Assembly (NCBI GenBank): GCA_016188865.1
Contig: JACPGX010000001.1
Span: 141,197 to 205,196 of the forward strand
DNA: 64,000 nucleotides
Origin: Candidatus Nealsonbacteria bacterium
Lineage (GTDB): Bacteria > Patescibacteriota > Minisyncoccia > Minisyncoccales > MHMH01
Reading direction: 5' to 3'
Positions 14,693 to 56,835 of the stretch are shown piece by piece. A model generated the notes under the pieces. It was not told the origin of the DNA. It saw only the letters and a program-made list of their open reading frames with translations, and searched no databases. Positions within the stretch are counted from its first letter, which is position 1. Each line of letters opens with the position of its first letter. The translations under genes were made by a program, and so were the position numbers.

Positions 14693-14781
14693 TCTTGCCG
14701 AGGAAGAAAATACCAATCGAATATCAATTTTCGGTCTCTCAATGGAATACTTTGTCGCTAAAATCGCGATGCAGTTAGACG

Positions 14782-14806
14782 ATGTTAGACGTCCGACGTC
14801 TAACAT
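14782..14806. repeat. 25-bp perfect palindrome (REP-like hairpin), copy 1
   Basis: ATGTTAGACGTC-C-GACGTCTAACAT. It is preceded by a partial direct copy, GTTAGACG, at 14774-14781. Confidence 0.9.
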
Positions 14807-14809
14807 CTA

Positions 14810-15496
14810 TTATTCCAAGAGAAAATCCTTGGTGATTATTTTTTTTGGCTTAAGCTTTGCTGTGCTCGTTTTTATAAATTTATAATAACTATTATTATCA
14901 GAGAATTGATTGAGGATAATGTCTGGTTTTAAAAGTTCACCCCAGCGATTATTTTTGACTAAATCTTGACAGCTTGACCATGGATATTTTTCTTCTTTGT
15001 CTTTCCATGCTTCTAATGCTCTTGGATTACGATGGATATATGCTGAAAGATAGAGAAGTTGTTCATCTGTTTCTACTGGAATGGCCCGGAAAGCGCCCTG
15101 GAAAAGATGACCATGTTTTTTATATTTTGTGTTGAAATATTTTGCGTAGCCAGTTTGTATTCTTTGGAGATAATGTGAGATGCCATTACTGTTATCGGTT
15201 TTTTCTTGGACTAAAAGATGAAAATGATTTGGCATAACGGTAAATATATTCAATTCTACAATTCTTTTATCCGCAATTTGGCGTACAGTCTCCTCGGGTA
15301 TATTGAATTGCGAATACTTAAGAAAATATGAACTTTGACGGCCGATATTATAGAAAGATAACGGAGCTTGATACGCAAAAATAAAAAAGAGAAAACGGCT
15401 GTAATCTCTTTCGTCAATAAATATTGCTGATTCGTCGTTGCTGCGATTACAAATATGGTAATAGTTATTTTGCGCAAATTTAAATTTCCTTATCAT
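14810..15496 (-). CDS. IS200/IS605-family Y1 (HUH) transposase, RAYT-like
   Basis: YYHICNRSNDESAIFIDERDYSRFL, HUH motif in MPNHFHLLV, GHLFQGAFRA, and the Tyr region YIHRNP. The start is moved to the ATG at 15496 (MIRKFKF...). The tracked start at 15535 lies inside the palindrome. Confidence 0.8.
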   Translation of the reverse strand: MIRKFKFAQNNYYHICNRSNDESAIFIDERDYSRFLFFIFAYQAPLSFYNIGRQSSYFLKYSQFNIPEETVRQIADKRIVELNIFTVMPNHFHLLVQEKTDNSNGISHYLQRIQTGYAKYFNTKYKKHGHLFQGAFRAIPVETDEQLLYLSAYIHRNPRALEAWKDKEEKYPWSSCQDLVKNNRWGELLKPDIILNQFSDNNSYYKFIKTSTAKLKPKKIITKDFLLE

Positions 15497-15509
15497 GATT
15501 ATAATATAA

Positions 15510-15536
15510 CATGTTAGACGTCCGACGTCTAACATG
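15510..15536. repeat. 27-bp perfect palindrome (REP-like hairpin), copy 2
   Basis: CATGTTAGACGTC-C-GACGTCTAACATG. Its inner 25 bp are identical to 14782-14806. Confidence 0.9.
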
Positions 15537-15540
15537 TTCT

Positions 15541-34480: not shown

Positions 34481-35489
34481 ATATAGAACAAGTTTTACAC
34501 AAAGGATACCCTCTTTTTTGGGCTATTTTGCGTCTTTCTCTGACGACTGGATCAAACCAAATATCTTTTAATTTCTGCGATAAAACATTGCCGTAAAAAT
34601 ATCGACCGTTTAAGTCATAACAGCACATCGACACTGACCCGTCTGCCAAAACTACCAAATGTGACTTGGCCAAGGGACATTTATCGGGGGGATTTTTTAT
34701 TTTCAGTTTGCCATCTTCTTTTTTGTATCTTACGGACCTGTCGTTTTCTGACTTGTCAGGAAAAAACTTTCTAGATAATTCCTCTCTTTCTTTTTCGGAA
34801 TAAGCATACTCTCCCAGATTAAAAGATCTTATGGAGAGTCTGTCGACTTTTAAATCTTTTGCTATTTTTTTGACATCTTCCAACTCATTTTGATTTAATT
34901 TATTAAAAACAAACTGCAATTCAATAAACGGTCTTCTCAGCTTTAGGGCCTGCTTCTGTCGGCAGAAATAAGTAATATTGCCCAAAACCTGCTCGAAATT
35001 GGCTCCCACTCTAAATTGCTCATAAGATTCCTTGGAGGTTCCATCTAAATCAAGAATGATCCTGTCTAATTTTGAACGAAATAAATCATTCGTCATCTCC
35101 CTATTCAGCAAAACCGCATTAGTGCTTATTTCAGTATATAAGCCATTTTGGTGGGCATACCCTGCCATTCTAGAAATATCGGGGTTGAGCAAGGGCTCAT
35201 TGGTAAAATATAAAAGTACGACCTGTACCGAATCTTTGATGTTATCAATGACTTTTTTGAAATTATCGAAAGACATCAGTTCTCTTTTTCTGCAGATTTT
35301 ACCGGCTGGCGTAGGGCAGGTGGGGCATCGCAAATTACAATAATTCCCCACCTCAATCAGGGCAGCATAGGGATGCCCAAAAAGCCGATATTTAATATTG
35401 GCTTTTATAAAATGCCATGGCTTAGAAAAATTTCTTTCTAATATATTGATTAAAATATGCTTCTTAAAAGCCGGGTAAATGCGATTCAT
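34464..35489 (-). CDS. Radical SAM enzyme with Cys-rich C-terminal (SPASM-like) extension
   Basis: CxxxCxxC in VGNYCNLRCPTCPT. C-terminal cysteines occur in CPLAKSH...SMCCYD...PLCKTCSIY. Confidence 0.7.
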   Translation of the reverse strand: MNRIYPAFKKHILINILERNFSKPWHFIKANIKYRLFGHPYAALIEVGNYCNLRCPTCPTPAGKICRKRELMSFDNFKKVIDNIKDSVQVVLLYFTNEPLLNPDISRMAGYAHQNGLYTEISTNAVLLNREMTNDLFRSKLDRIILDLDGTSKESYEQFRVGANFEQVLGNITYFCRQKQALKLRRPFIELQFVFNKLNQNELEDVKKIAKDLKVDRLSIRSFNLGEYAYSEKEREELSRKFFPDKSENDRSVRYKKEDGKLKIKNPPDKCPLAKSHLVVLADGSVSMCCYDLNGRYFYGNVLSQKLKDIWFDPVVRERRKIAQKRGYPLCKTCSIYESKN

Positions 35490-36529
35490 TTAAATTCAAA
35501 GATTATTTTATCAATAAAATTGTTTAAATTATGGTTTTTGACAACTATTTCTCTTAGGGCGGGGTCTTCCGCGGCTCCCATTAAATTAAGCATCTTTTGA
35601 GCTAAATCTTTCTCATCTCCTTTTTTGAACATGTACTTTTGAGCCAAAATCTCTCGATATGCCTCATTGCAGGTAAGAACCAGGCAACCCGAAGACATGG
35701 CTTCTAAAACCACCTTATCCAGACTGCCGGTTGAGCTGGGATTAACGAAAAGGTCGGCCCAATTAAAGTATTCCGGCATTTCAGAAAAAGAAACTCCGCC
35801 GGCAAACTCAATATGGCTCTCCAAATTATAATTTTTAACCAAATTTTTCAAATCGGCTAAGTATTCTTCCTGAGATTTTAAAAGCGGCCGGCCGAGGATC
35901 CTCGCCTTTAAATTATTAATGTTCTTTTGATTGACTAAGATATTAACTGCCTCAATTAAAGTTTTGTGGTCTTTCACCGGCACAAGTCGGGCGGCGTACA
36001 GAATTTTGATTACGCGAGGTTTGACCTCCTCGGGGGGTCGAACCTCTTTAATTGGTTTAAAAAATTCCGTATCTATCGCCTGTCCGACTACTTCAATTTT
36101 TTTACTTTTTAACCGGCAGCCGGCAGAAGATGAGGTAACAATAACATTCACTAATTTTTCTGCTAATTTCAGCTTCCAGGGAAGAGCGCCGTGGGCATAC
36201 CATAAAACCAGTTTTTTGCCGAAAAGCTTAGCCAAAGGAAAAGCGGCTATAGCGAAAATAGAACCCATGTGGCAATAAACGCCGTCTGATTCCGGCAGGC
36301 ATTTAAATAGAATTTTCTGCATTCTAAAAAACTGCCTTATTTTGGAATAGCCCTTTTCTTTGCCCAAAGAAAAAACCTCAACGTTTTCCGGCAAATGATG
36401 CTCTCCAACCTGCAACCCTACAACAAAAACTTTTTCCAGTTTTTCTGAAAATTTTTCCAAAATCCTATGAAAAAAACTTAAGTTATCATCGTTAAAATCT
36501 ACTCTTTGAACGATAATTAAGAGTTTCAT
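35486..36529 (-). CDS. Glycosyltransferase, GT4-like
   Basis: GSLDKVVLEAMSSGCLVLT and ILYAARLVPVKD. It carries the 31-nt palindrome at 36016-36046 in its interdomain linker. Confidence 0.75.
   Translation of the reverse strand: MKLLIIVQRVDFNDDNLSFFHRILEKFSEKLEKVFVVGLQVGEHHLPENVEVFSLGKEKGYSKIRQFFRMQKILFKCLPESDGVYCHMGSIFAIAAFPLAKLFGKKLVLWYAHGALPWKLKLAEKLVNVIVTSSSAGCRLKSKKIEVVGQAIDTEFFKPIKEVRPPEEVKPRVIKILYAARLVPVKDHKTLIEAVNILVNQKNINNLKARILGRPLLKSQEEYLADLKNLVKNYNLESHIEFAGGVSFSEMPEYFNWADLFVNPSSTGSLDKVVLEAMSSGCLVLTCNEAYREILAQKYMFKKGDEKDLAQKMLNLMGAAEDPALREIVVKNHNLNNFIDKIIFEFK
36016..36046. repeat. 31-nt palindromic element (type B, degenerate copy) inside a GT4 gene
   Basis: GAGGTTTGACCTCC-TCG-GGGGGTCGAACCTC. 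Translated on the minus strand as EVRPPEEVKP. Confidence 0.75.
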
Positions 36530-37647: not shown

Positions 37648-37702
37648 ACTTAGGACTTAGGAACTTAGTTTCTAAGTAAACTTAGAAACTAAGTTCCTAA
37701 GT
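37648..37702. repeat. 48-bp perfect palindrome (22-bp arms, 4-nt loop) preceded by an extra ACTTAGG unit
   Basis: ACTTAGGAACTTAGTTTCTAAG-TAAA-CTTAGAAACTAAGTTCCTAAGT at 37655-37702, with an extra ACTTAGG at 37648-37654. It covers the stop codon of 37697-38689. Confidence 0.9.
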
Positions 37703-38689
37703 TCGTTTTAATATCCGTAACGTTTTCTCCACTAAATTATCCCAGCTAAAATCTTTTAATTTCTCTCTAGAATTGCGGATAAATTTTTCCTGCAAACTCT
37801 TGTCGCTCCACAACTTCAAAATAGCTTGCTTTATCTGTTCTTTATTCTTGTATTCTACCAAAAAACCATTAAAATTATCTTCAATTAATTCCGGATTGCC
37901 CCCTTCACTGCTGGCTATCACCGGCACTCCAAAACTCATTGCTTCCAATATGACATGAGACAGACCCTCATAGCCTGAATTTAAAACAAACATATCGGCA
38001 GCCTTAAAGTAAAAAGGCATTTCTTCATGGGGAACTTTTTTATCCTCTCCGACAATTACTAATTTGAAATTTGGATTTTCTTTAAGCAAGTCTGGCATAA
38101 TGGCCCTTAAGTCGTCGAAGCCCTTCCATGGCACAGGACGTCCAACTGATAAAATAATATTTCCGTCAATGCCAATATTTTTTTTGGCATCCTCCTTAGA
38201 AATATCCGGTCGAGAACCGTTCTCGACCGCATTATAAATAACCTCTATTTTGTTCTCCGATACGCGCCAAGAAGCCACCATTTTTTTAACATACCTGCTG
38301 GGAACAATAATTTTATCAGCTCCTCTGGCAACATAAGCCTGAATACTTTTTAAATAATTCTTCTTCTGCTCCCAGGCTGCATCCCCGACAACCTTTAAAA
38401 CAAATTTTTTTCTTAATAATTTTGCCGCCCAGAAAGCCGGCAATCCTGCGCTAGTCGGATTTTGAGCATAAATAACATCAGCCTCTTTTGCCAGCCGAAG
38501 CAAACCCAAGAAATATAAAAAATGCTTTAAACCTTTAGGGTATTTTTTCAATCTTCCTGAATAACTAATAACTGGCTGATTCAATTCTTTGGCCAGCCTT
38601 TTAACATATGTCGCTGGCCCGCCAATGTCAGGCGGATATATGCCGGTGGCTAAGACAATTTTCATATATTTTAAATACCTCTTGGGCAA
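37697..38689 (-). CDS. Glycosyltransferase, GT4-like
   Basis: MKIVLATGIYPPDIGGPATYV and EGLSHVILEAMSFGVPVIASSEGGNPELI. The likely true start is the ATG at 38665. Confidence 0.8.
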   Translation of the reverse strand: MPKRYLKYMKIVLATGIYPPDIGGPATYVKRLAKELNQPVISYSGRLKKYPKGLKHFLYFLGLLRLAKEADVIYAQNPTSAGLPAFWAAKLLRKKFVLKVVGDAAWEQKKNYLKSIQAYVARGADKIIVPSRYVKKMVASWRVSENKIEVIYNAVENGSRPDISKEDAKKNIGIDGNIILSVGRPVPWKGFDDLRAIMPDLLKENPNFKLVIVGEDKKVPHEEMPFYFKAADMFVLNSGYEGLSHVILEAMSFGVPVIASSEGGNPELIEDNFNGFLVEYKNKEQIKQAILKLWSDKSLQEKFIRNSREKLKDFSWDNLVEKTLRILKRT

Positions 38690-39740
38690 TATTCTGCCAA
38701 TCGTATCTCGTTAATCCTGCAATAGCAAAATTAACGAGGCGCTCTCTTAATTCTGGATTATTATAAATTCTTAATATGGCTTTGGCAATCTCCTCTGGAT
38801 TTCCCGGCGTCACCAAAAGACCATTTTTCTCATTTTCGATAATATCTAAAATTCCGCCAACCTTGCTTGCAATAACCGGGACCCTAGCTGCTATGGCTTC
38901 CAAGATAGCTATGCCGAAGCCCTCTTTCAGGGAAGGCAAAACGAAACAGTCCGCCATAGCCAGATATTCTGGAATGCCTTCTGGAGGAATCGGTCCCAAA
39001 AATTTTACTTTCTTCACTAAGCCGAGCTCTCTGGTCAAATTTTCTAAATTTTTTCTTTCAGAACCATCGCCGATAATGAATAATTGGAGATCCGACCCCG
39101 CCAAGGCGAGATCGGATCTTGTAAAAGCCCTAATCAAATATTCTATCCCCTTTACTTTTTCCAACCTCGCCACCGTCATCACCACAAAACCATCTTTTTG
39201 TTGTTTCTTTAAATTCTCAAATCTTTTTAAATCAACGCCGTTAGGTATTACCTCAATATTTGAGCATCCGATTTCTTTAAAATATTCTTTGATGGCGGAA
39301 CTTGCAGCAATGCAGACTTTAGCGTTTCTATAAACTATTTTTTTTAAGAAATTATTCCCCTCCAACCTCTGAACGGTCACAATGTAGGGTATGTTGACAA
39401 TTTTTGAAATATAATATCCTATGCAGGCCCCCAGAAATCCTTGGCAGTGTAAAAGATTAATTTTCTGTAATAATATTAGAAAAAAAGAGCGCGAAAATAT
39501 GAATGGCATAGCTGTCAAAATGTGAAAGAACGAAGAATAGGAAAGGTCTTTCAGGGCAAATAAAGATGTCCGAAAAATTTTAACTCCATTTTTAACTTCG
39601 TGTTTGGCGCTATCCCCAACCCTAGCTGTAACAACAAAAATTTCGGCTTTATTCGCAAGCTTTTCGGCAATATTTTGCGTCCAGGTCTCTAATCCTCCGA
39701 TCACGGGATAATAATGTAAAACCGGCATTAAAATTCGCAT
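38628..39740 (-). CDS. Glycosyltransferase, GT4-like
   Basis: MRILMPVLHYYPVIGGLETW and EGFGIAILEAIAARVPVIASKVGGILDII. Confidence 0.8.
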   Translation of the reverse strand: MRILMPVLHYYPVIGGLETWTQNIAEKLANKAEIFVVTARVGDSAKHEVKNGVKIFRTSLFALKDLSYSSFFHILTAMPFIFSRSFFLILLQKINLLHCQGFLGACIGYYISKIVNIPYIVTVQRLEGNNFLKKIVYRNAKVCIAASSAIKEYFKEIGCSNIEVIPNGVDLKRFENLKKQQKDGFVVMTVARLEKVKGIEYLIRAFTRSDLALAGSDLQLFIIGDGSERKNLENLTRELGLVKKVKFLGPIPPEGIPEYLAMADCFVLPSLKEGFGIAILEAIAARVPVIASKVGGILDIIENEKNGLLVTPGNPEEIAKAILRIYNNPELRERLVNFAIAGLTRYDWQNIAQEVFKIYENCLSHRHISA

Positions 39741-40828
39741 AGTACATTTTTTATTGATTCCAACATCGTTCTAATATCTTTTTCCGCGTAGTAATTCTGC
39801 AAGGGGAAATTGATGATTCTCTTGGCGACTTCAAAGGTGTTGGGGAATTCTTCCCGGCTTAAAACAATAGGCGTGTGCCAAATGCGGGTGCAGAAAACTC
39901 GGTACCTTCTCAATCCCGCCACAATTTCATCTCTTTTATTTTCCAAATTTTTGGGGACTAAAGCGGAAAGATAACAAAAAACGTTGTTTTCGTGCTCTTG
40001 AACTTCAAAACCTAAATTTTGAAGCTCTTGCTGAAAAAACTTAGCAAGCTTTATCCTGTTTTGCATAGATTTTTCAAAATCTTCCAGAGAATAATAGAAA
40101 AGGGCCAAAGATAACTTATTGAGGCCTGCGGGCTCCGGTAATTTTTCCTTTCTTAGCATCTTCGGAGCGATATCGTTGCCAAACTTTTTAAAAATAAAGG
40201 CGAAAAAAGGAAGGCAATTCAGTAAAGAAATGAAATCCCTGAAATTAAAATTGGTTTTTGGCAGAGAGATTTGCCAATCCTTGGGACAAACTAACAATCC
40301 GCCTCTTAATGCCGGGAATTGCTTGTAAAGACTGAAAAATGCAATATCACTTTTCGGCTTAACCCCGAAAGCATGAGCGCAATCTTCAATAATCGCAATA
40401 TCGGAGGTCCGACCTCCCGACAAATATGACGGGAGGTCGGACCTCAATCCATCAACATCGAACGGGAGACCGTAGGTGTGGCACACTAAAATCGCCTTTG
40501 TCCGGGGAGTAATCTTCCTAAAGATTTCTTCTCTTTTAATATGAAAAGTTTTCAAATCAATATCCAAAAAAATCGGTTTTATATTATATTTCTCTAAAAT
40601 TGGCTGGAATATATCGCAAATATAAGCCGGCATCATTATTTCTGAATTTTGAAGATTCAACTTTCCAATAATAATTTTGAAAGCAGACCGGCCCATGTCG
40701 GTGAAAATAAGCTGTTTACTCGGAAAATATGACTCAAGTTTTTGAGCTAAATTAATCTTCTTGAAATTATTAAGTTTTATTTGCGGGTGGACGAAAAACA
40801 TACTAGTCTTACTCTGGCTAGGCACCAT
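39728..40828 (-). CDS. Divergent DegT-family PLP-dependent aminotransferase carrying an in-frame palindromic element
   Basis: HTYGLPFDVDG, IIEDCAHAFG and FFSLYKQFPALRGG (Lys retained). The residues LRSDLPSYLSGGRTSD are encoded by the repeat at 40403-40445. Confidence 0.65.
   Translation of the reverse strand: MVPSQSKTSMFFVHPQIKLNNFKKINLAQKLESYFPSKQLIFTDMGRSAFKIIIGKLNLQNSEIMMPAYICDIFQPILEKYNIKPIFLDIDLKTFHIKREEIFRKITPRTKAILVCHTYGLPFDVDGLRSDLPSYLSGGRTSDIAIIEDCAHAFGVKPKSDIAFFSLYKQFPALRGGLLVCPKDWQISLPKTNFNFRDFISLLNCLPFFAFIFKKFGNDIAPKMLRKEKLPEPAGLNKLSLALFYYSLEDFEKSMQNRIKLAKFFQQELQNLGFEVQEHENNVFCYLSALVPKNLENKRDEIVAGLRRYRVFCTRIWHTPIVLSREEFPNTFEVAKRIINFPLQNYYAEKDIRTMLESIKNVLCEF
40403..40445. repeat. 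42/43-nt nested double-hairpin element (type A), copy 1, inside a DegT-family gene
   Basis: GGAGGTCCGACCTCC-CGACAAATATGAC-GGGAGGTCGGACCTC. Its reverse complement matches 46914-46955 at 40 of 42 positions. Confidence 0.9.
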
Positions 40829-46570: not shown

Positions 46571-47713
46571 ATGGAAACTGTCAATACCGCAAAACGCAAA
46601 ATACTCTTTCTGGTCACCCAATCTGAAATGGGCGGCGCGCAGAGGTATATTTATGAAGTATCAAAAATACTGTCAGAAAGACACGAGATTTTGGTTGCGG
46701 CCGGAGAGGGAGATGGAGAGTTCTTCCAGAAACTAAAAAATACACCGGTTGAACCGGTGTATCTGAAACATCTGCAAAGAACTCCTGAACCGCATTCAAT
46801 TATCATGGCTATCGTTGAAATAATAAAACTTCTCAAGGCAGAAAGGCCGGATGTTTTGTTTTTGTGTTCTACTACTGCTGGGCTACTCGGCTCCATTGCC
46901 GCCCGAATTTACAGAGGTCCGACCTCTCGTCAGATTTGTCGGGAGGTCGGACCTCGCGTAATCTATCGTATTGGCGGCTGGGCCTTCAACGACCCTCGCC
47001 CATTCTGGAAAAATTGGCTTATCCTGCTGGCGGAGAAATTAACCGCCCGATTTAAAGATATAATCGTAGTGAACTCCGAATATGACCTGCGGATTGCGTT
47101 AGAAAAACGAATCGTTTCTCCGGAAAAAATAGTGAAAATCTATAATGGGCTTGATCGAAATTCTTTGAATTTCTTGCCCAAAGACGAAGCCCGTGGTCTG
47201 TTGACATCCGATGTCAACAGACGAATGATTGGGTGCGTGGCGAATTTTTATAAGACTAAAGGGCTAAAGTGCCTTATTGACGCTTTCGATTTTCTGATGT
47301 CCGGCTTCCCGAAGAAGTCGGACATCAAGCTATTCGTCATCGGCGATGGGAAACTGCGGTCGGAACTTGAAGCTCAAATAAAAAAACTCGACTTAGAAGA
47401 CAGGGTGATTTTAGCCGGCAGAATGCCCGACGCCTATAAATATCTAAAGGCATTTGATGTCTTCGTGCTTCCCTCTCTTAAGGAGGGTTTTCCATGGGTC
47501 ATACTGGAAGCTGCGGTAGCTGACGTTCCGATTGTCGCCACAAAAGTAGGAGCCATACCAGAAATATTGCCGGAAGAATTTTTAGTAAAACCAGGCGATG
47601 CCCAAGCTTTGGCAAAAAAAATTGGCTGGATGCTTGAACATCCAGCCGTACCAAAACTCAAGCAGAACTTCTCTCTGCAAAAAATGGCAGAGGAAACCGA
47701 GAGGCTACTCTAA
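46571..47713 (+). CDS. Glycosyltransferase, GT4-like (only plus-strand gene) carrying in-frame palindromic elements
   Basis: SEMGGAQRYIYEV and EGFPWVILEAAVADVPIVATKVGAIPEIL. RGPTSRQICREVGPRV is encoded by the repeat at 46913-46955. Confidence 0.8.
   Translation: METVNTAKRKILFLVTQSEMGGAQRYIYEVSKILSERHEILVAAGEGDGEFFQKLKNTPVEPVYLKHLQRTPEPHSIIMAIVEIIKLLKAERPDVLFLCSTTAGLLGSIAARIYRGPTSRQICREVGPRVIYRIGGWAFNDPRPFWKNWLILLAEKLTARFKDIIVVNSEYDLRIALEKRIVSPEKIVKIYNGLDRNSLNFLPKDEARGLLTSDVNRRMIGCVANFYKTKGLKCLIDAFDFLMSGFPKKSDIKLFVIGDGKLRSELEAQIKKLDLEDRVILAGRMPDAYKYLKAFDVFVLPSLKEGFPWVILEAAVADVPIVATKVGAIPEILPEEFLVKPGDAQALAKKIGWMLEHPAVPKLKQNFSLQKMAEETERLL
46913..46955. repeat. 42/43-nt nested double-hairpin element (type A), copy 2, inside a GT4 gene
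   Basis: AGAGGTCCGACCTCT-CGTCAGATTTGTC-GGGAGGTCGGACCTC. Confidence 0.9.
47297..47325. repeat. 29-nt imperfect palindrome (type C) inside the plus-strand GT4 gene
   Basis: ATGTCCGGCTTC-CCGAA-GAAGTCGGACAT. Translated as MSGFPKKSDI. Contains GTCGGAC. Confidence 0.55.
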
Positions 47714-49414: not shown

Positions 49415-50452
49415 TTAAAAACGCGATTCAAGCCAATTGGCAAAAGATTCGAATGCACTGAAAAGACTGGCTTGGGCTGCGGAAATTTGCTGCTGCAAAA
49501 GCTGAATTAATTGCGCAAGCAAATTAATGATTTTTTGCTGGAGTTCTTGAATTAAAGCCCGGAGTTCTTCTGGAGAAAGAGGACCACCGGTGCCGGTGGG
49601 AGCGGGTTCTTCTTCCTTTATTTGTTGAGGTTCGACCTCCTCGGGAGGTCGAACCTCTTCGATTTCGGGCAGTGGCAGAGTTTTAACGTCCGGGAAAACC
49701 GTTAAAGCAGAAACTAAATTTTGCCCTCGGTCGTTAAAAGCTTTTATCTGCCTTCCAGAATATTCCGTATCAGGCCTTAAGCCTGTTTCGTCAAGATAAG
49801 AAATGTTTGCTCCGCCCGAAGCTACCGTATTCAGATTCTCATCTAAAATTTTAAAGCCGAACTCATTATTGGATAAATCCGTAAAATGCCACCTGATTGT
49901 TGAAGTGGATATTGCCTCGCCTGACTTTGCCAAGGGAGAAACAGGAGCAGAAGGAGTGTCGCTTCCTGCCAGAATCATTCTTTCAAGGCCAATAATTTTT
50001 TTGTCAGTGGGACCCTTAAGACTGACGTCAGGAAAAACTGCTGAATTTATTTGTATTTCCGGTTTAATTGTTTTTCCAGTATAGGTAGTAGAAGCGATGT
50101 CTACGGTAATAAAAATCCTTTGCTTTGTAAAAGTTCCATTGAGAGTTGTGTCAAAAAAAGGAGAAAATGATTTCCTCAATTTTTCAGATTCATCGCCGTC
50201 CCAACCCGGCGAAACGCCGTCTTCATAAATTGAAAGCTGGGAAATATCATATTGCTGAACAGTTCCGGTGTTATCAATTTTTATTGAAGTTAAACCGGCG
50301 CCGGGAAGAGTCAAATCTAAAATCAAGAGGTTAGTAGTGCCAGCCGGCACAGCGTAAGTTGACTGCGGGTTGACTATAAAATCATTGGCTGTTGAAGCAA
50401 AAGAAAAACCAGGCGCTAAAACAAAAACTAAAACTAAAATAATTTTCCTCAT
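49415..50452 (-). CDS. Secreted protein with FN3-like domain and C-terminal coiled coil
   Basis: Signal peptide MRKIILVLVFVLAPGFSFAS. STIRWHFTDLSNNEFGFKILDENLN...TEYSGRQIKAFNDRG is FN3-like. The C-terminus is LRALIQELQQKIINLLAQLIQLLQQQI. Confidence 0.6.
   Translation of the reverse strand: MRKIILVLVFVLAPGFSFASTANDFIVNPQSTYAVPAGTTNLLILDLTLPGAGLTSIKIDNTGTVQQYDISQLSIYEDGVSPGWDGDESEKLRKSFSPFFDTTLNGTFTKQRIFITVDIASTTYTGKTIKPEIQINSAVFPDVSLKGPTDKKIIGLERMILAGSDTPSAPVSPLAKSGEAISTSTIRWHFTDLSNNEFGFKILDENLNTVASGGANISYLDETGLRPDTEYSGRQIKAFNDRGQNLVSALTVFPDVKTLPLPEIEEVRPPEEVEPQQIKEEEPAPTGTGGPLSPEELRALIQELQQKIINLLAQLIQLLQQQISAAQASLFSAFESFANWLESRF
49584..49599. repeat. 16-nt palindrome inside the 345-aa secreted protein gene
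   Basis: CCACCGG-TG-CCGGTGG, translated as PTGTGG. It lies 27 nt from the type B element. Confidence 0.6.
49627..49657. repeat. 31-nt perfect palindromic element (type B) inside the 345-aa secreted protein gene
   Basis: GAGGTTCGACCTCC-TCG-GGAGGTCGAACCTC (14-bp arms). Translated as EVRPPEEVEP. Confidence 0.85.
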
Positions 50453-50518: not shown

Positions 50519-53500
50519 CTATTTGCTCAAACTAAGCGTGGCTGTCGGGAAAGTAGCAATTTTGTACTCGTTACTCCAGTCGGTGCTGACGTAATTATGA
50601 GTAGCGCCAGAGCCAGATTGGTCTGACCAGACAAAGGTCGGAGCGGTAGAAGTGACATAGTTGTGAGCGTTCGGCGAAGCCATATCGGTGGAAGTAGCAA
50701 ATGAGGCAGCTGTGAAGAAGTTAACGGTAGAAGTAGCAGTAGCTCTCTTGGCAATCTTGGTAGAAATTGAGTCGCCGGCTTTTCCGCCGTACAAAATGTC
50801 TCCCCTTAACTCATAAGTCTTGGTTGCGCCAGCAGAAACAACTTGTTCTGTTTTTGCAACAAAGGCTACTCTGGCCCCTCCTGCGTAATAGTTGTAAACA
50901 CTAACACCTGCATCCGTTTGAACGTCAGTAGTCGTGCCGAGAATCTGATCGCCAGTGGCCACGTCGTAAACCTTGAGCGTGCTGCTGGATATCAATAGTT
51001 TGGCTACAGCGTTAAAGCTTCCTGAATCGCCCGGAGTAGTGGTGGTACCCATGTAAATACCAAAGGTAGTGGTAGCTCCACCAGCGCCGATGGTATAAGT
51101 ATCAGAACCAATCTGAACGGAACCAGACACATCAAAGATCACCTTTACCCAACCGATTGCGCCCTCTGGGCCAGCAGTCACTGTCCATCTATAGAGCGTC
51201 TTTTCGCCGGCAGAAAAAGTGGTGCTCGGCAGAGAAGACGCGGCTATTGTAGGTTTGGACTTATGAATAAGCTGCCAGTTGCCGCAAAGTTTCCCTGCAT
51301 CAGTAGTGCCGGAAGGATTAATTACAACTCCAGAGCTTACTCCTTTAACAGTGCTTGTCGCATAGCAAAGCGCAGGAGTGTCTCCGGTGGTAGCGCCCGC
51401 CTGATCAGCTGATTTTACTCCATAAAGATCTGCCTTAATGGTCAAGACCTTAGTGGTGTCTTTAGGAACTACCCAGAAAGAACCAGCTGAAAAATTAAAG
51501 GTGGTTGATGAGTTAGCTAGACCGTAGTTAACCAAAACCTGGTCTGTCCCCAATTGAGTAGTGCCATCCCACAAACTAACATTGACAAAATCAGAATCTG
51601 CAGTGGTGGTTCCGGTTCCAAATTTCCTTTCTATGACAATGGATTGTACGCTGATATCTTCTCTAGCGGCAGTAAAGTTGACTTTCGTAAAGACAACATC
51701 CTGCTTGATACTGCCAGTTGGACCAACAGTTACGATAGTTGAATCCGGAGTATCGGCTGCGCTAGTTATAGCTAAAGTACCAGAACTTTGTAAGGTAATA
51801 TAGCTTAGCGAGCTCTCGGTAGAAGTGGCAAAGTTAGCTGTGCCATGCACGCCGGTGATAGTAGTAGTCGGGGTTGTATTGGAAGAAAGACCGGTAAAGG
51901 TTACATCTCTTGTCCCATTCAATCCGCTCATGCCGGAAGCCAAATCAGAAGAGCTGGCAATACCAATAGCAACGATATCGCTCGCATTGCCGGTTGAAAG
52001 AAAATCACTTTTTACGGTAATCGTCTTCTGGGCTCCTTTGGTAATGGTAATGCCTTGCGCGTTCAAGAAGTCAGAAGCTGAAAAGGTAACGGTGGTAGCT
52101 GAAGTGGAATCCCAGCCTTTTACTGAAGTTAATCTGGTGGCTCCATCGTAAAGGGCGAAATTGGAGAAGTCTGCTTGGAATTCTGTTGCTGAAGGAGTAC
52201 CGCCTCCTTGAGAACCGGTTAATTTAATTCTGGTTATTCTGACATCTTCAGCTGAACCGGCCGTAAAGACCAAACCAACTACTGGAACCGCATCGGAGCC
52301 AATAATTATATTTTGGTCGCCGGGATTAGCTGCAGCAGAAACAGTTAAGGCACCCTGTCCAAAGGTCATGGTTTTGCCATAAACCGATGTAGCTGTTTCG
52401 GTAATGGTGGCAGTTGAAGCAGATCCTTGAGTGGTTATCTTGGTGGCATTAGTCACCTGAACGCTGCCGGTGCTCAAAGCTGTATTGCTGGGAATATCGG
52501 CCACCACTTTCAGGGTTATTGTTTCTGAAGCAGGTACTGTTAAATTAAAACTGAAAGAAGCGTTGGTAGTCGGAGAAGGGACAGTAGAACCCAACTGAGT
52601 GCCATCTAGCTTCAAAAGTTTGACATTGGTGTAATCTCCTGAAGCAGCGTTGGTGGGCGAAGACGCCGCATCGCCGCTATTCAGGTTTACTTCCAAAGAC
52701 GATACAAGCATATCTTCCCCAGAATCAGCCGTTAAATTGATTCTCATCATTTCAATGCCCGATGCTCCCTTAATAATGGTTTGAGCTGCCGGGGTATTGG
52801 CTGATAAAGCTAACGTTAAGGCTCCGCTGGCTGTAACCGTATGAAGGTTGCCATTACCGGAAGTCAAAACAATGTTAGTTGTGCTTTGGGTAATATCGTA
52901 CTTTGACTCTAAACCGTCAATCCAGATATCGCTATAAGTATCAATATCTAGATCAAGCGTGTTATTGGTCGTAGCGCCGCTCGGAACGTCAGCTTTAACT
53001 TGCAAAGTCTTGTTGCTTGACTTCGCTATATCAATGATGCCCGGGTCATCCCAGCCAATGGTGTTTGAACCAAAGGTTGCATATGAACCGATCAAAGATA
53101 CTGGGCCGCCTACCTGAGTAGTTCCGTCCCAAAGGGTGATATTGGAAATATCAGTAGCTGAACCGCTTCCATTACTGAGCTTAAGCCTTAGCTTAACCAA
53201 TCTTACGCCCTCTCTTGAACCAGCGGTAAACTTAAATGCCGAAATTAATCGGTTAGAAGTTCCCTTAACATAGTTCTGGGCAGCAGGATTGTAAGCTGCG
53301 TCAACATTAACGGTTAATGAACCCTGCCCAATAGTCATGGTGTTACCGGTTGATTTCTGATAGGCTTGGGTATCATTGTGAGAAGCTTCAATTTGCCCAC
53401 CTGAATTGGCGCCATAAGCAGTCACATCATTGAATTGAGTGATTTCAAAGATGACTGTTCGGTTTGTCCAGATTCCGGGAGCAATATCAGCGTAAGCGTA

Positions 53501-54796
53501 AACTGTCTTAGATTGGCTGGCTAAAAGTGCCAATGGGCTGGCTGATAAATCAAAAGTGGCCTGATTTTGAGCGTCCAAAGCAGTTACTGTTGCGCCAATC
53601 TGCGCGCCGGCATACTTCAACTTAATGTTGGAAATGTCGGTGGCGGCAGCTGAACCAGTATGAGTAATAGTAATTGAGTGGACATCAGTAGCTTCAGTTG
53701 AAGAAGCTTCAAAGGTAAAGCCAGCTATTTCCTGATCGACAGATCCTGATAAAATCGTAGCGGCAGCCGGAGAAGTTGAAGTGGCAACAAACAACTCGCC
53801 AACTGAAGTTCCTGCTATTGTTAAGGCTTTTCCGTTTATCGGGAAAACGCCCGTAGGAGCAACAGTGGAAGTAATGTCGCCCGCCGCTTCAATGCCTAAC
53901 TCTAAACCGTCGCCAACTGTGGCAACTCCTTTAGCCGCAATGCTCACTTTCACGGTCAAGTACTTGGTTTCTCCTGCTGGGATTATCCAGCTAAGGCCGG
54001 AAAAAGTGGCTTTGTGCGTGTTGGTGTTTAAAGCTTGCGATGAACCGAGTTGTTTTGCGCCATCATAAAGTTTGATGGCGGAAACATCGGCATCAGTCGA
54101 AACTCCGCCTCGCTTTATAATTATTTTGGAAACCGTGTAATCAGAAGCGCCAGCAGTGAATTGAATCTTAGTAGCAACACTATTGACTGCTCCCAAGGCT
54201 ATTTGTTTAGCCGCAGACGTGTCGGCAGCCAAAGAAACTGAAGCTACAGTTGAAACTGGCGTAGTCGGGGTTGTTGGTGTAGTTGGAGTTGTCGGGGTGG
54301 TTGGAGTTGTTGCTCCTAACATAGAGTTTAATTTAGCTCTTGTTCCCGAACCGACAAAACCAGTGCCCGAAGTTAAACCAATGGGCGTTAAAACATCAGA
54401 AGCGTATTTGTTCTGAAATTTGACAACTGCCGCTTTGGTTAAAGCGCCAAAGAAAGTGGTTTCACTTCCTTTAGAACCTACTCCCGAAGCAGCAATCTGC
54501 GTTGCAGAATCCGAGTTCAAAACAATCTGCAGATATTTCACTGCATTGCCTGAACTGCCCTGCTTCAAGTTGGCTGTAAAGCTGAAATCAGCCGGAACGC
54601 CTGTAATAGCGCCTCCAGCTGCTGGTGTTTCTACAGTAGCTAACTGGGACTGCAAAAGAGCCAATTGAGCCATTAGGGCGTCAATTTGCGTTTGCAATTC
54701 AGCAGCTGTCAAAGCAAAAGCAGAACCCGGAATCATCCAAGCAGCTACAGTCATAGTCGTCACAACCGCAATAATCTTTTTCTTTAAGTTATTCAT
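50519..54796 (-). CDS. Giant (1425 aa) surface protein: N-terminal anchor, coiled coil, PG-binding domain, (TTP)n linker, six tandem Ig-like modules and a distinct C-terminal domain
   Basis: MNNLKKKIIAVVTTMTVAAWMIPGSAFA; AELQTQIDALMAQLALLQSQL; GSSGNAVKYLQIVLNSD...FGALTKAAVVKFQNKYA; TTPTTPTTPTTPTTPTTP. There is a recurring motif of the form D(I/F)SN(I/F)xL(W/Y)DG(T/A)xQ(L/V)G. Confidence 0.75.
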   Translation of the reverse strand: MNNLKKKIIAVVTTMTVAAWMIPGSAFALTAAELQTQIDALMAQLALLQSQLATVETPAAGGAITGVPADFSFTANLKQGSSGNAVKYLQIVLNSDSATQIAASGVGSKGSETTFFGALTKAAVVKFQNKYASDVLTPIGLTSGTGFVGSGTRAKLNSMLGATTPTTPTTPTTPTTPTTPVSTVASVSLAADTSAAKQIALGAVNSVATKIQFTAGASDYTVSKIIIKRGGVSTDADVSAIKLYDGAKQLGSSQALNTNTHKATFSGLSWIIPAGETKYLTVKVSIAAKGVATVGDGLELGIEAAGDITSTVAPTGVFPINGKALTIAGTSVGELFVATSTSPAAATILSGSVDQEIAGFTFEASSTEATDVHSITITHTGSAAATDISNIKLKYAGAQIGATVTALDAQNQATFDLSASPLALLASQSKTVYAYADIAPGIWTNRTVIFEITQFNDVTAYGANSGGQIEASHNDTQAYQKSTGNTMTIGQGSLTVNVDAAYNPAAQNYVKGTSNRLISAFKFTAGSREGVRLVKLRLKLSNGSGSATDISNITLWDGTTQVGGPVSLIGSYATFGSNTIGWDDPGIIDIAKSSNKTLQVKADVPSGATTNNTLDLDIDTYSDIWIDGLESKYDITQSTTNIVLTSGNGNLHTVTASGALTLALSANTPAAQTIIKGASGIEMMRINLTADSGEDMLVSSLEVNLNSGDAASSPTNAASGDYTNVKLLKLDGTQLGSTVPSPTTNASFSFNLTVPASETITLKVVADIPSNTALSTGSVQVTNATKITTQGSASTATITETATSVYGKTMTFGQGALTVSAAANPGDQNIIIGSDAVPVVGLVFTAGSAEDVRITRIKLTGSQGGGTPSATEFQADFSNFALYDGATRLTSVKGWDSTSATTVTFSASDFLNAQGITITKGAQKTITVKSDFLSTGNASDIVAIGIASSSDLASGMSGLNGTRDVTFTGLSSNTTPTTTITGVHGTANFATSTESSLSYITLQSSGTLAITSAADTPDSTIVTVGPTGSIKQDVVFTKVNFTAAREDISVQSIVIERKFGTGTTTADSDFVNVSLWDGTTQLGTDQVLVNYGLANSSTTFNFSAGSFWVVPKDTTKVLTIKADLYGVKSADQAGATTGDTPALCYATSTVKGVSSGVVINPSGTTDAGKLCGNWQLIHKSKPTIAASSLPSTTFSAGEKTLYRWTVTAGPEGAIGWVKVIFDVSGSVQIGSDTYTIGAGGATTTFGIYMGTTTTPGDSGSFNAVAKLLISSSTLKVYDVATGDQILGTTTDVQTDAGVSVYNYYAGGARVAFVAKTEQVVSAGATKTYELRGDILYGGKAGDSISTKIAKRATATSTVNFFTAASFATSTDMASPNAHNYVTSTAPTFVWSDQSGSGATHNYVSTDWSNEYKIATFPTATLSLSK
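51400..54250 (-). repeat. Six divergent tandem protein modules (~110-140 aa each) inside the 1425-aa gene
   Basis: Module anchors: VSAIKLYDGAKQLGS, DISNIKLKYAGAQIGA, DISNITLWDGTTQVGG, YTNVKLLKLDGTQLGS, FSNFALYDGATRLTS, FVNVSLWDGTTQLGT. Each is preceded by an FTA(G/x)S..E motif and followed by a KT(L/I)xVKAD motif. Boundaries are approximate. Confidence 0.6.
54255..54312 (-). repeat. Coding 9-nt tandem repeat encoding (Thr-Thr-Pro)6
   Basis: GGNGTNGTN units on the + strand are translated on the minus strand as TTPTTPTTPTTPTTPTTP. Confidence 0.8.
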
Positions 54797-56280: not shown

Positions 56281-56835
56281 TTAATGTGTCCCATTTTTAA
56301 CATAATATACTCCCCTGCCGGCGCCATTCCTTACCATTATGCCGGTTTGACAAAGCTTATCTAAATCTCGGAGAACGGTTCTCCGATTAATTTCTGGGAA
56401 AAGCCCAACCACATCGCCTATTCTAAATCGGCCGTTTCCGTTAATGTATGCAATAATTTTCTCCTGTCGCCCCGCCTTTGCCAAGGCTTCGGTAGGCAGA
56501 TAGTTATCCACAGTTTTTCCAGAGTCGTGTTGCCCAACATCCGATGTTTGACATAGCTGACTCAACTTATTATATTCTCTCCTTAGGACCTCAAAATTCC
56601 TCGAATCCACCCAATTATTCTGCTTGGCTAAATCAAAAAGCCCAAAAATCTCTGTAATCTTACGAGAACACATCTCGTCCTGACGAGAAATGTTCTCGTA
56701 AGATTCCACCATTATTCTATCAGCTAATTCTCTTATTTTAGAAGCCAAATCCTCTCCAACGGGAAAAAGAGCGGTCACTTTATAGACCGCTAAAGTCAAT
56801 TTTAGAAGATGTTCTTTGTCCAGATTTTGCCGCAT
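56281..56835 (-). CDS. Putative transcriptional regulator: N-terminal four-helix-bundle domain plus C-terminal winged HTH
   Basis: HLLKLTLAVYKVTALFP...IRELADRI is four-helix-bundle-like. INRRTVLRDLDKLCQTGIMVRNGAGRGVYY is a DeoR-like wHTH. Confidence 0.5.
   Translation of the reverse strand: MRQNLDKEHLLKLTLAVYKVTALFPVGEDLASKIRELADRIMVESYENISRQDEMCSRKITEIFGLFDLAKQNNWVDSRNFEVLRREYNKLSQLCQTSDVGQHDSGKTVDNYLPTEALAKAGRQEKIIAYINGNGRFRIGDVVGLFPEINRRTVLRDLDKLCQTGIMVRNGAGRGVYYVKNGTH

What the first reader, a model, noticed from the sequence alone, without database searches (positions are those of the whole stretch)
40403..40445. A 42-nt nested double-hairpin element sits in-frame inside a DegT-family aminotransferase gene
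The segment reads GGAGGTCCGACCTCC-CGACAAATATGAC-GGGAGGTCGGACCTC. It has two 16-nt arms that are reverse complements of each other, separated by a 10-nt spacer. Each arm is itself a small hairpin around GTCCGAC/GTCGGAC. It is a GC-rich island in an AT-rich gene and is translated as LRSDLPSYLSGGRTSD. The two in-window paralogues (3462-4592 and 7386-8519) read VDMKKIRKIADK(Y/H)KLKVIEDAAHC at the equivalent site. This gene reads VDGLRSDLPSYLSGGRTSDIAIIEDCAHA, so the element replaces or extends the segment before the conserved IEDxAH strand without breaking the frame. A 40/42-identical copy lies in an unrelated gene at 46913-46955. In-frame palindromic repeats in ORFs are classically known from Rickettsia (RPE elements), whereas REP/BIME-type repeats are normally intergenic.
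Basis: partly seen in the sequence, partly recalled or inferred. Interest (0 to 1): 0.8.

Follow-up and report, generated by a model that had tools for sequence, protein, structure and literature searches.

The report
Transposase-linked palindromes inside bacterial protein genes
The 42-base palindrome is real: it is one copy of a family of small hairpin repeats, linked to a hairpin-recognising transposase, that in these tiny-genome (CPR/Patescibacteria) bacteria sit mostly inside protein-coding genes and appear to be read through as extra amino acids.

Summary
A 42-nt near-perfect palindrome lies at 40404-40445 inside a DegT-family gene. A 40/42 copy lies at 46914-46955 inside a GT4 glycosyltransferase gene. 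Both are in frame, but in different frames.

It is one member of a set of palindrome families in this Candidatus Nealsonbacteria genome. The unit is GAGGT-YSR-ACCTC, mostly found as inverted doublets.

- The same design occurs in at least 119 loci of species-representative genomes, about 75% of them CPR by record title.
- About 61% of copies lie deep inside long ORFs, and all three reading frames are used.
- In relatives, identical units directly flank genes for REP-associated tyrosine transposase (RAYT)-like HUH/Y1 enzymes.
- The window holds such a gene (14810-15496). It is flanked by palindromes that share the 7-nt tip GTCCGAC.
- Orthologues of both host genes carry the element at the same codon. 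The arms are 26/26 identical although the genes are only 66-74% identical. The spacers resemble other copies in the same genome.

Best reading: a REP/REPIN-type non-autonomous element, mobilised or homogenised by RAYTs and translated in frame, as in Rickettsia RPEs and the intragenic REPs of Opitutus. This is a new variant of a known kind. Mobilisation and translation are inferred, not shown.

The parts
40404..40445 (-). The finding: a 42-nt REP doublet (REPIN-like). Sense-strand sequence: GAGGTCCGACCTC-CCGTCATATTTGTCGG-GAGGTCGGACCTC. It is read in frame as LRSDLPSYLSGGRTS.
39728..40828 (-). Host gene, DegT/DnrJ/EryC1-family aminotransferase. The longest ORF is given; the public annotation P0001 starts 9 codons downstream. 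The element encodes aa 128-142.
   Evidence: Pfam PF01041, E = 1.6e-25, full length. P0001 is 100% identical and named Candidatus Nealsonbacteria. AF2 model: helix 125-135, loop 136-144, strand 145-149.
46914..46955 (+). Second copy, 40/42 identical: GAGGTCCGACCTC-TCGTCAGATTTGTCGG-GAGGTCGGACCTC. It is read in another frame as RGPTSRQICREVGPR.
   Evidence: Orthologous copies in L165 and L208; a single unit at the same site in L207.
46571..47713 (+). Host gene of copy 2, a GT4 glycosyltransferase. It carries three palindromes of three families (46740, 46914, 47196).
46740..46762 (+). 23-nt perfect palindrome ATACACCGGTT-G-AACCGGTGTAT (peptide NTPVEPVY). It belongs to a family that flanks RAYT genes in L187, L204 and L205. 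The family is kept at this orthologous site with compensatory changes.
47196..47222 (+). 27-nt perfect palindrome GTCTGTTGACATC-C-GATGTCAACAGAC (peptide GLLTSDVNRR). It is a relative of the palindromes that flank the window's RAYT gene.
49627..49657 (-). 31-nt short doublet GAGGTTCGACCTC-CCGAG-GAGGTCGAACCTC inside ORF 49415-50452 (peptide EVRPPEEVEPQ).
36016..36046 (-). Degenerate 31-nt short doublet inside GT gene 35486-36529 (peptide EVRPPEEVKPR).
14810..15496 (-). RAYT-like HUH/Y1 tyrosine transposase gene. Motifs: YYHICNR, MPNHFHLL, AYIHRNP. The likely start is M at 15496; the ORF is open to 15535.
   Evidence: Pfam Y1_Tnp 39.7 bits. NCBIfam REP_Tyr_transpos is the only hit, 45 bits, below the cutoff of 80. 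Foldseek top PDB hit is 4er8, TnpA_REP bound to a REP hairpin, E = 1.3e-5.
14781..14807 (.). 27-nt perfect palindrome GATGTTAGACGTC-C-GACGTCTAACATC, 3 nt past the RAYT stop codon.
15508..15538 (.). 31-nt perfect palindrome AACATGTTAGACGTC-C-GACGTCTAACATGTT, just upstream of the RAYT start codon.

Best explanation
The 42-nt element is a doublet of two inverted 13-nt REP-type units, which is the REPIN layout. It belongs to a family of small non-autonomous palindromic repeats that are partnered with REP-associated tyrosine transposase (RAYT)-like HUH/Y1 enzymes in CPR/Patescibacteria.

Proposed mechanism, with the status of each step:
1. On single-stranded DNA the element folds into a hairpin whose tip is GT-Y-S-R-AC. 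The fold is predicted in silico; formation in the cell is inferred.
2. A RAYT recognises that hairpin, cuts next to it, and copies it or exchanges it between sites without target-site duplication. This is inferred from what is established for IS200/IS605 TnpA and for E. coli TnpA_REP.
3. These genomes have almost no intergenic DNA, and the units contain no stop codon in any frame. Copies therefore survive mainly in tolerant surface segments of proteins. There they are transcribed and translated as 5-15 extra or replaced residues. The location in open frames is shown; translation is inferred.
4. Once a site is occupied it stays a hot spot. It can hold a single unit, a short doublet or a long doublet, and its sequence is kept like the other copies in the same genome. 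This concerted evolution is shown. Whether it comes from re-insertion or from gene conversion is unknown.

No host function is needed to explain the data.
For: Repeat family.
- There are two 42-nt copies and two 31-nt copies in the window.
- A degenerate pattern found at least 119 loci in species-representative genomes, about 89 of them CPR by record title.
- In 120 of 138 doublets the arms are exact reverse complements, although the pattern did not require this.

Link to RAYT.
- RAYT homologues abut GAGGT..ACCTC units in L036 (both flanks, 3 nt from the ATG), L003 and L111. In L060 a RAYT lies about 150 nt from a 42-nt copy.
- The window's own RAYT is flanked on both sides by a palindrome (GACGTC-C-GACGTC) that matches the element's arm at 11/13 positions. 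The two differences form one compensatory swap, and the 7-nt tip GTCCGAC is identical.
- Orthologues of this RAYT at 59-80% identity are each flanked by TGTTAGAC...GTCTAACA palindromes with covarying tips. Six of 13 pairs change on both sides, and 0 of 500 shuffles reach the observed covariation score.
- The predicted RAYT fold has 4er8 as its best PDB match.

Inside genes.
- 73 of 120 doublets lie deep in ORFs of at least 150 codons.
- Frames 0, 1 and 2 are used 28, 23 and 22 times.

Selection on DNA rather than on protein.
- The arms are 26/26 identical between orthologues whose genes are 66.5% and 74% identical, with 47% and 54% identity at third codon positions.
- The two window copies encode different peptides.

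Turnover at one site.
- The DegT site is empty, or holds a 31-nt, 42-nt, 44-nt or family-B element, or a decayed relic, in different orthologues. These states are patchy on the tree.
- GT site 2 holds a single unit, a 39-nt doublet or a 42-nt doublet.

Concerted evolution.
- Spacers are 14/16 and 15/16 identical within a genome, against 7/16 and 10/16 between orthologous sites.

No target-site duplication is seen at the junctions. This fits Y1 transposition.
Against: - No RAYT directly flanked by GAGGTCCGACCTC was found in this genome. Only 64 kb of it could be read, and the in-window RAYT has a related but different stem.
- The RAYT-like proteins score below NCBIfam's RAYT cutoff (45 against 80 bits).
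- Many RAYT genes sit on very short contigs and in non-syntenic places. They may therefore behave more like IS elements than like the domesticated single-copy RAYTs.
- Classical REP tags (GTAG or CGTC at one end) are absent.
- Some occupied sites show no net length change against palindrome-free orthologues. Simple insertion does not predict this.
- Core lengths are not multiples of three.
- Spacer covariation within the 42-nt family is not significant: 92 of 500 shuffles reach the observed score.
- Neither transposition nor translation was observed.
Confidence: 0.72

Rival explanations
1. The palindromes are made and kept perfect in place by a mutational process. Candidates are intrastrand template switching (snap-back synthesis) or gene conversion between arms and between copies. 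Under this view the Y1 genes are ordinary IS200-like elements that happen to have hairpin ends, and they do not mobilise the short elements.
For: - Occupancy is length-neutral at GT site 1 and in L136.
- The palindromes are perfect, with a single central base, and compensatory changes preserve the symmetry.
- There are many unrelated perfect palindromes: 84 against 4 after shuffling in 939 kb.
Against: - The same 13-nt unit and the same 42-nt layout recur in unrelated genes and in many phyla-level CPR lineages.
- Dispersed copies are identical to the palindromes that flank RAYT genes. For example, the L207 GT site-1 palindrome equals the L205 RAYT flank 23/23.
- A purely local process does not explain family identity across loci.
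Confidence: 0.12
2. The hairpins are kept because they serve the host, at DNA or RNA level. Possible roles are mRNA stabilisation or RNase sites, translation or transcription pausing within glycan-synthesis genes, or recombination hot spots that diversify surface-polysaccharide enzymes. RAYTs would only seed them.
For: - The arms are invariant at orthologous sites despite saturated synonymous divergence.
- Covariation is seen at an orthologous intragenic site.
- In the window the elements cluster in glycosyltransferase and aminotransferase genes.
Against: - Presence is patchy among close orthologues, with empty and decayed alleles.
- Elements also occur in intergenic DNA and inside RAYT genes themselves.
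- There is no consistent position in genes and no consistent strand energy bias.
- Concerted evolution alone can explain the invariant arms.
Confidence: 0.1
3. The 13-mer is a DNA-uptake signal, like DUS or USS. Those motifs also occur inside genes and as inverted pairs.
For: - The motif is short, conserved and tolerated in all reading frames.
- CPR bacteria are thought to depend on DNA uptake. This point is background knowledge, not tested here.
Against: - In 939 kb of unbiased Nealsonbacteria-like DNA the motif occurs 12 times as a doublet and only twice as a true singleton. That is about 1 per 60 kb, not about 1 per kb.
- Many different palindrome families coexist in one genome.
- The families are associated with RAYT genes.
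Confidence: 0.02
4. The element is either a conserved protein motif, with palindromic DNA only as a by-product, or an assembly artefact.
For: Peptides such as LRSDL..GR[ST]DL recur in DegT orthologues.
Against: - The same DNA is read in three frames, giving unrelated peptides.
- The element occurs in unrelated proteins and in intergenic DNA.
- Identical elements are present at orthologous sites in independent assemblies from ENA, JGI, Logan and NCBI.
Confidence: 0.02

Closest known systems
REP / REPIN elements with their RAYT (TnpA_REP) in Proteobacteria (E. coli, Pseudomonas, Stenotrophomonas)
   Same: - Short GC-rich palindromes occur singly and as inverted doublets that form a larger hairpin.
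- The same palindromes flank a Y1/HUH transposase gene, sometimes in inverted orientation (L204).
- Several RAYT paralogues occur per genome, each with its own palindrome.
- There is no target-site duplication.
- Copies persist at orthologous sites.
- The predicted fold of the window enzyme is closest to 4er8.
   Different: - The units are much shorter (13-15 nt) and the doublets are 29-55 nt.
- There is no GTAG or CGTC end tag.
- Most copies are inside ORFs (61% deep in long ORFs), not extragenic.
- The host is CPR/Patescibacteria.
- The enzymes fall below NCBIfam's RAYT threshold and are not syntenic between genomes.
Intragenic REPs and REP dimers of Opitutus terrae, Thauera, Xanthomonas, and the CGTC-type RPE-4/RPE-6 of Rickettsia conorii (Di Nocera et al. 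2013, PMC3733652)
   Same: REP units and dimers are inserted in frame in known proteins and encode up to 20-30 residues. Different REPs can occupy about the same site in orthologous genes.
   Different: In those species the intragenic copies are a minority of a mainly intergenic population, and they carry GTAG or CGTC tags. Here the intragenic location is the rule, and the family core is GT-Y-S-R-AC.
Rickettsia palindromic elements (RPE-1 and others). This comparison rests on my own knowledge plus PMC3733652.
   Same: They are palindromic repeats inserted in frame into ORFs of a reduced genome. They are translated and sit at tolerant surface positions.
   Different: RPE-1 is about 100-150 bp. 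No transposase partner is known for RPEs. The lineage is unrelated (Alphaproteobacteria). Sequence similarity was not tested here.
GC-cluster / double-hairpin elements of fungal mitochondria. This comparison rests on my own knowledge and was not tested.
   Same: They are GC-rich nested palindromes in AT-rich genomes, and some lie inside coding regions.
   Different: They are organellar, have no Y1 transposase partner, and some are bypassed during translation rather than read.

Membership tests
REP (repetitive extragenic palindrome) | Short (about 20-40 nt) GC-rich imperfect palindrome, repeated in the genome | tested here: met
   The palindromes are 31-42 nt and the units 13-15 nt. The window holds 2 + 2 copies. 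The family recurs in at least 119 loci elsewhere. The genome-wide copy number in the source genome could not be counted.
REP (repetitive extragenic palindrome) | Extragenic location | tested here: not met
   73 of 120 doublets lie deep in ORFs of at least 150 codons. Only 23 of 120 lie in no ORF of at least 100 codons.
REP (repetitive extragenic palindrome) | Conserved GTAG (or CGTC) tetranucleotide at one end | tested here: not met
   The flanks of 19 GAGGTCCGACCTC doublets are variable and carry neither a GTAG nor a CGTC end tag. CGTC occurs only inside the stem of the window RAYT's own palindrome.
REP (repetitive extragenic palindrome) | The same palindrome flanks a RAYT gene | tested here: met
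   For the GAGGT..ACCTC family this holds in relatives: L036 on both flanks, L003 and L111. For sister families it holds in the window (14781/15508) and in L187, L204, L205 and L206. It was not found for this exact family in the 64 kb of the source genome.
REPIN | Two REP units in inverted orientation, separated by a short spacer, folding into one hairpin | tested here: met
   120 of 138 doublets have exactly inverted arms. The ssDNA hairpin energy is -22.3/-23.4 kcal/mol, z about -7.7. Single-unit and doublet states occur at the same orthologous site.
REPIN | One cognate, vertically inherited, single-copy RAYT per REPIN population | not testable with these tools
   Only 64 kb of the genome was available. 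Relatives have at least 2 diverged RAYT paralogues within 10 kb. Orthologous RAYTs are not syntenic.
RAYT / TnpA_REP (for ORF 14810-15496) | HUH and catalytic Tyr motifs; Y1_Tnp domain | tested here: met
   The motifs MPNHFHLL and AYIHRNP are present. Pfam PF01797 scores 39.7 bits, above its cutoff of 23.
RAYT / TnpA_REP (for ORF 14810-15496) | Passes the curated RAYT model (NCBIfam NF047646) | tested here: not met
   It is the only NCBIfam hit for all 7 proteins tested, but the window protein (the best scorer, E = 8.6e-12) reaches 45 bits against a cutoff of 80.
RAYT / TnpA_REP (for ORF 14810-15496) | Fold of TnpA_REP / IS200-IS605 TnpA | tested here: met
   AF2 model: pLDDT 69 overall, 80-90 in the core. 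Foldseek top hit 4er8_A, E = 1.3e-5, then ISDra2 and IS608 TnpA. A PDB profile search gave 2xm3 at E = 0.019 and 4er8 at E = 0.13.
Rickettsia palindromic elements (RPE) | Palindromic repeat inserted in frame in ORFs | tested here: met
Rickettsia palindromic elements (RPE) | Sequence homology to an RPE family consensus | not tested
The length (42 nt) differs from RPE-1.
MITE | Terminal inverted repeats plus a target-site duplication | tested here: not met
   No direct repeat is seen at the junctions, either in filled versus empty comparisons or in filled versus filled comparisons.
DNA uptake sequences (DUS/USS) | Very frequent short motif, mostly as singletons, about 1 per kb | tested here: not met
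   12 doublets against 2 true singletons in 939 kb.

The most novel reading that the evidence does not exclude
CPR bacteria may carry a distinct class of RAYT-hairpin systems whose elements live mainly inside coding sequence. They would be propagated by overwriting, not by plain insertion. An occupied or hairpin-like site would be rewritten to the genome's current master sequence. That rewriting is sometimes length-neutral, and both arms are re-symmetrised each time. If so, a transposase-like enzyme continuously edits short stretches of protein-coding genes. The window's examples are mostly in surface-glycan enzyme genes. The result would be lineage-specific peptide cassettes at fixed positions.
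Probability: 0.15. Interest if true: 0.85.

Novelty: new variant of a known kind. Interest (0 to 1): 0.6.

Why it matters
REP/REPIN-RAYT systems are known mainly from Proteobacteria, as intergenic repeats. In-frame palindromes are known mainly from Rickettsia, where no enzyme partner is known.

Here both features occur together in the Candidate Phyla Radiation. Hairpin repeats are tied to RAYT-like enzymes, lie mostly inside genes, persist at orthologous codons, and evolve in concert within each genome.

If this holds, three things follow.
- It explains many odd lineage-specific inserts in CPR proteins, and some of the assembly breaks in CPR MAGs.
- It gives a natural system for asking how non-autonomous hairpin elements persist when there is no intergenic DNA.
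- It offers simple testable substrates for CPR Y1 enzymes: 13-nt units with the tip GT-Y-S-R-AC.

I found no paper in the searchable library that describes REPs or RAYTs in Patescibacteria. That library does not cover most subscription journals.

Tried and rejected
- Rfam at gathering thresholds and a tRNA scan of the window found nothing.
- An exact look-up of the longest DegT ORF found no record, because the public gene starts 9 codons later.
- A direct phmmer search of the RAYT against PDB gave no hit. A profile search and a fold search were needed.
- The test for covariation in the spacer of the 42-nt family was not significant: 92 of 500 shuffles reach the score, and the arms are invariant and so uninformative.
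- The idea that intragenic copies have core lengths that are multiples of three is not supported: 20, 29 and 24 copies have lengths of 0, 1 and 2 modulo 3.
- The idea that stop-free variants are more often genic shows only a weak trend: 27/37 for variants open in all six frames, against 31/57 for variants with four or fewer open frames.
- Walking beyond the window with the edge proteins returned only short contigs that overlap the window. No genome-wide census was therefore possible.
- BLAST of the window against the 119 pattern loci found no near-identical genome among those loci.
- The readings as a uptake signal, a protein motif or an artefact were considered and rejected (see the rival explanations).
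Full report
**1. What is in the window**

At 40404-40445 the plus strand reads GAGGTCCGACCTCCCGACAAATATGACGGGAGGTCGGACCTC.
- It has two perfect 16-nt arms and a 10-nt spacer.
- Each 13-nt arm core is itself a palindrome around a single central base.
- A second copy at 46914-46955 equals the reverse complement at 40 of 42 positions.
- None of 100 shuffles of the window gave a match to the 42-mer.
- GC is 0.62, against 0.36-0.39 around it.

Copy 1 lies in the minus-strand ORF 39728-40828, a full-length DegT/DnrJ/EryC1 aminotransferase (Pfam E = 1.6e-25). Copy 2 lies in the plus-strand GT4 glycosyltransferase 46571-47713. Relative to the sense strand both copies have the same orientation. They are read in different frames, as LRSDLPSYLSGGRTS and RGPTSRQICREVGPR. 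As single-stranded DNA each folds into one long hairpin (-18.7 to -23.4 kcal/mol, z = -5.8 to -7.9), not into two small ones.

**2. It is not alone in the window**

The window holds many other perfect palindromes.
- Two 31-nt doublets, GAGGTTCGACCTC-CTCGG-GAGGTCGAACCTC, at 49627-49657 and, degenerate, at 36016-36046. Both lie inside ORFs and both encode EVRPPEEV[EK]P.
- A 23-nt palindrome at 46740 and a 27-nt palindrome at 47196, in the same GT gene as copy 2.
- A 23-nt palindrome at 38207 in another GT gene.
- A 50-nt nested palindrome at 56656 in an HTH gene.
- A 48-nt intergenic palindrome at 37655.
- Two palindromes of 27 and 31 nt with the core ATGTTAGACGTC-C-GACGTCTAACAT, at 14781 and 15508.

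The last two bracket ORF 14810-15496.
- It has the motifs YYHICNR, the HUH motif MPNHFHLL, and AYIHRNP.
- It matches Pfam Y1_Tnp at 39.7 bits.
- Its only NCBIfam hit is REP-associated tyrosine transposase, at 45 bits, below the curated cutoff of 80.
- An AF2 model of it finds 4er8, the E. coli RAYT bound to a REP hairpin, as the best PDB match (E = 1.3e-5), followed by ISDra2 and IS608 TnpA.

The flanking palindrome's core, GACGTC-C-GACGTC, differs from the finding's arm, GAGGTC-C-GACCTC, only by one compensatory swap. Both have the 7-nt tip GTCCGAC.

**3. Source and distribution**

The host proteins are 100% identical to proteins of a Candidatus Nealsonbacteria MAG, on a 271-kb contig.

- By record title about 89 are CPR lineages: Saccharibacteria, Paceibacterota, Moran-, Nealson-, Jorgensen-, Levybacteria and others.
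- The rest are Omnitrophota, Thermodesulfovibrionia, Elusimicrobia and a few others.
- In 120 of 138 doublets the arms are exact reverse complements, although the pattern allowed eight variants per arm.

**4. Genic or intergenic**

- 63-77% of doublets lie in open frames of at least 200 or at least 100 codons. Random positions in the same loci give 76-91%.
- 73 of 120 lie at least 15 codons from both ends of an ORF of at least 150 codons.
- Only 23 lie in no ORF of at least 100 codons.
- The three frames are used 28, 23 and 22 times.
- The CCG/CGG and TCG/CGA units have no stop codon in any frame.

The family is therefore mainly intragenic and is not selected for one peptide.

**5. Link to the transposase**

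A tblastn search with the window RAYT found homologues next to the elements in several loci.
- In L036 (Taylorbacteria) the gene is bracketed by GGTGAGGTCGGACCTCCAGATCTGGAGGTCCGACCTCA(CC), 3 nt from its ATG and inside its 3' end.
- In L003 and L111 single units and doublets lie at both ends. In L111 one doublet lies in frame inside the RAYT gene.
- In L060 (Nealsonbacteria) a 42-nt copy lies about 150 nt from a RAYT that is itself flanked by another palindrome.

Orthologues of the window RAYT were then examined.
- L204 is 80% identical, L205 70% and L206 59%.
- Each is flanked on both sides by TGTTAGAC...GTCTAACA palindromes.
- The tips differ: GTC-C-GAC, G-CCAGA-C, GCT-G-AGC and CTC-C-GAG.
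- In L204 the two loops are inverted relative to each other.
- On an alignment of these flanks, 6 of 13 pairs change on both sides, 95.7% of cells pair, and no shuffle reaches the covariation score.

Second RAYT paralogues in L204, L205 and L187 are flanked by ATACA[CG]-NGGT... palindromes. This is the same family as the window's 46740 palindrome.

**6. Orthologous sites**

DegT gene.
- Orthologues at 76% protein identity (L120, L128) have a 42-nt element at the same codon and in the same frame, with a different spacer.
- Others (L121, L122, L137; 62-79% identity) have a 31-nt form, GAGGTCCGACCTC-CGCGG-GAGGTCAGACCTC, giving the peptide LRSDL-RG-RSDL.
- L135 has a 44-nt variant.
- L136 has the TCG-type doublet at a slightly different junction.
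- L149 and L133 keep a similar peptide with decayed DNA.
- Many, such as L123-L126, are empty.
- On a neighbour-joining tree these states are patchy among close relatives.

GT gene.
- The site of copy 2 holds a 42-nt doublet in L208, a 39-nt doublet in L165, and a single unit within TTACAGAGGTC-C-GACCTCTGTAA in L207.
- More distant orthologues hold unrelated heptamer repeats there.
- The 46740 site holds a perfect palindrome in six or seven lineages. Seven of 12 pairs change on both sides, and no shuffle reaches the score.

Arms and spacers.
- The arms are 26/26 identical between window and L165, where the GT genes are 66.5% identical (47% at third positions).
- They are also 26/26 identical between window and L120, where the DegT genes are 74% identical (54% at third positions).
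- Spacers are 14/16 identical between the two window copies and 15/16 between the two L208 copies.
- Between orthologous sites of different genomes they are only 7/16 and 10/16 identical.
- Copies therefore evolve in concert within a genome.

**7. Effect on the protein**

In an AF2 model of the DegT protein (pLDDT 83.5), residues 125-135 (VDGLRSDLPSY) form the helix that canonical relatives encode as D-I-E-K-I-K-x-I. Residues 136-144 form a lower-confidence loop before the conserved AIIED strand. So the first arm encodes the native helix position and the rest extends the loop. The PLP-fold core is intact.

**8. Interpretation**

The best-supported reading is a REP/REPIN-type non-autonomous hairpin element partnered with RAYT-like Y1 transposases, tolerated in frame inside genes.

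Shown:
- family identity;
- hairpin potential;
- adjacency to RAYT genes;
- intragenic location;
- orthologous persistence;
- concerted evolution;
- absence of target-site duplications.

Inferred from knowledge of IS200/IS605 TnpA and E. coli TnpA_REP:
- recognition of the hairpin on single-stranded DNA;
- cleavage next to the hairpin.

Also inferred: translation of the insert.

Unexplained:
- Occupancy is length-neutral at some sites.
- All families share the tip GT-Y-S-R-AC although their RAYTs are only about 30% identical.

**9. Comparison with what is known**

[quoted passage not shown] (PMC3733652). There they are a minority of mainly intergenic families that carry GTAG or CGTC tags. Here the units are shorter and untagged, mostly intragenic, and found in CPR. 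I found no paper on REPs or RAYTs in Patescibacteria in the library. I therefore rate this a new variant of a known kind.

Rival readings are weighed in the rival explanations:
- in-place palindrome formation;
- a host-functional hairpin;
- an uptake signal (12 doublets against 2 true singletons in 939 kb);
- a protein motif;
- an artefact.

Noticed in passing
window 37655-37702: A 48-nt perfect palindrome (23-bp arms: ACTTAGGAACTTAGTTTCTAAGT AA ACTTAGAAACTAAGTTCCTAAGT) lies in the short gap between two glycosyltransferase genes. Related CTTAG...CTAAG palindromes occur in L204 14269-14307 and L205 12424-12444.
   Followed up: partly
window 56656-56705: A 50-nt nested palindrome (15-bp outer arms plus an inner TCTCGTC-CTG-ACGAGA hairpin) lies in frame inside ORF 56281-56835, a DeoR-type HTH protein. 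It encodes ESYENISRQDEMCSRKI.
   Followed up: no
window 38207-38229: A 23-nt perfect palindrome, CGGTCGAGAAC-C-GTTCTCGACCG, lies inside GT gene 37697-38689. The same GAGAAC-S-GTTCTC family recurs in L124 11864, L125 4844 and 8071, L165 2457 and L205 3647.
   Followed up: partly
L208 281-322 and 6574-6615; L165 11763-11804; L124 4017-4064: A parallel doublet family, 42 nt in L208 and L165, with the same 13+16+13 layout but a different unit: GCAGTTGAACTGC-CATCAATATAATGATG-GCAGTTCAACTGC. One copy lies inside the GT orthologue.
   Followed up: no
L111 2191-2225; L187 about 3660-3680; L204 18991-19016: RAYT-like genes themselves carry in-frame copies of their own palindrome family inside the coding sequence.
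   Followed up: partly
GT orthologues L137, L134, L168, L171 (site of window 46914) and L207 (site of window 47196): In other lineages the same protein loops hold in-frame heptamer tandem repeats, (AAACTAC)n, (AAATACA)n and (ACCAGAT)n, instead of palindromes. These loops are therefore general hot spots for repeat accumulation.
   Followed up: no
A2 alignment of GT orthologues: Recurrent insert peptides appear at different sites in non-sister orthologues: DAHCSH, PAFAKASAGK/PAYAKATAGK, NPSTSLGIDGERSRTI and LTSDFNRLLKSEVNK. These are probably further repeat families. Their DNA was not examined.
   Followed up: no
window 50519-54796 and 49415-50452: A 1425-aa ORF and a 345-aa ORF have no Pfam or NCBIfam match. 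The 345-aa ORF has a signal-peptide-like N-terminus and hosts the 31-nt doublet.
   Followed up: no
RAYT homologues P0245, P0257, P0264, P0331, P0337: Many RAYT-like genes sit alone on contigs of about 0.8-2 kb, with many member sequences. This suggests that assemblies break at the flanking palindromes or that the unit is multicopy.
   Followed up: no
window 1-48000: Nearly all genes are on the minus strand and GC skew is uniformly negative. The region is one long cluster of sugar-modifying genes, with three DegT paralogues, radical-SAM enzymes, epimerases and many GT4 genes. Most intragenic palindromes of the window lie in this cluster.
   Followed up: no
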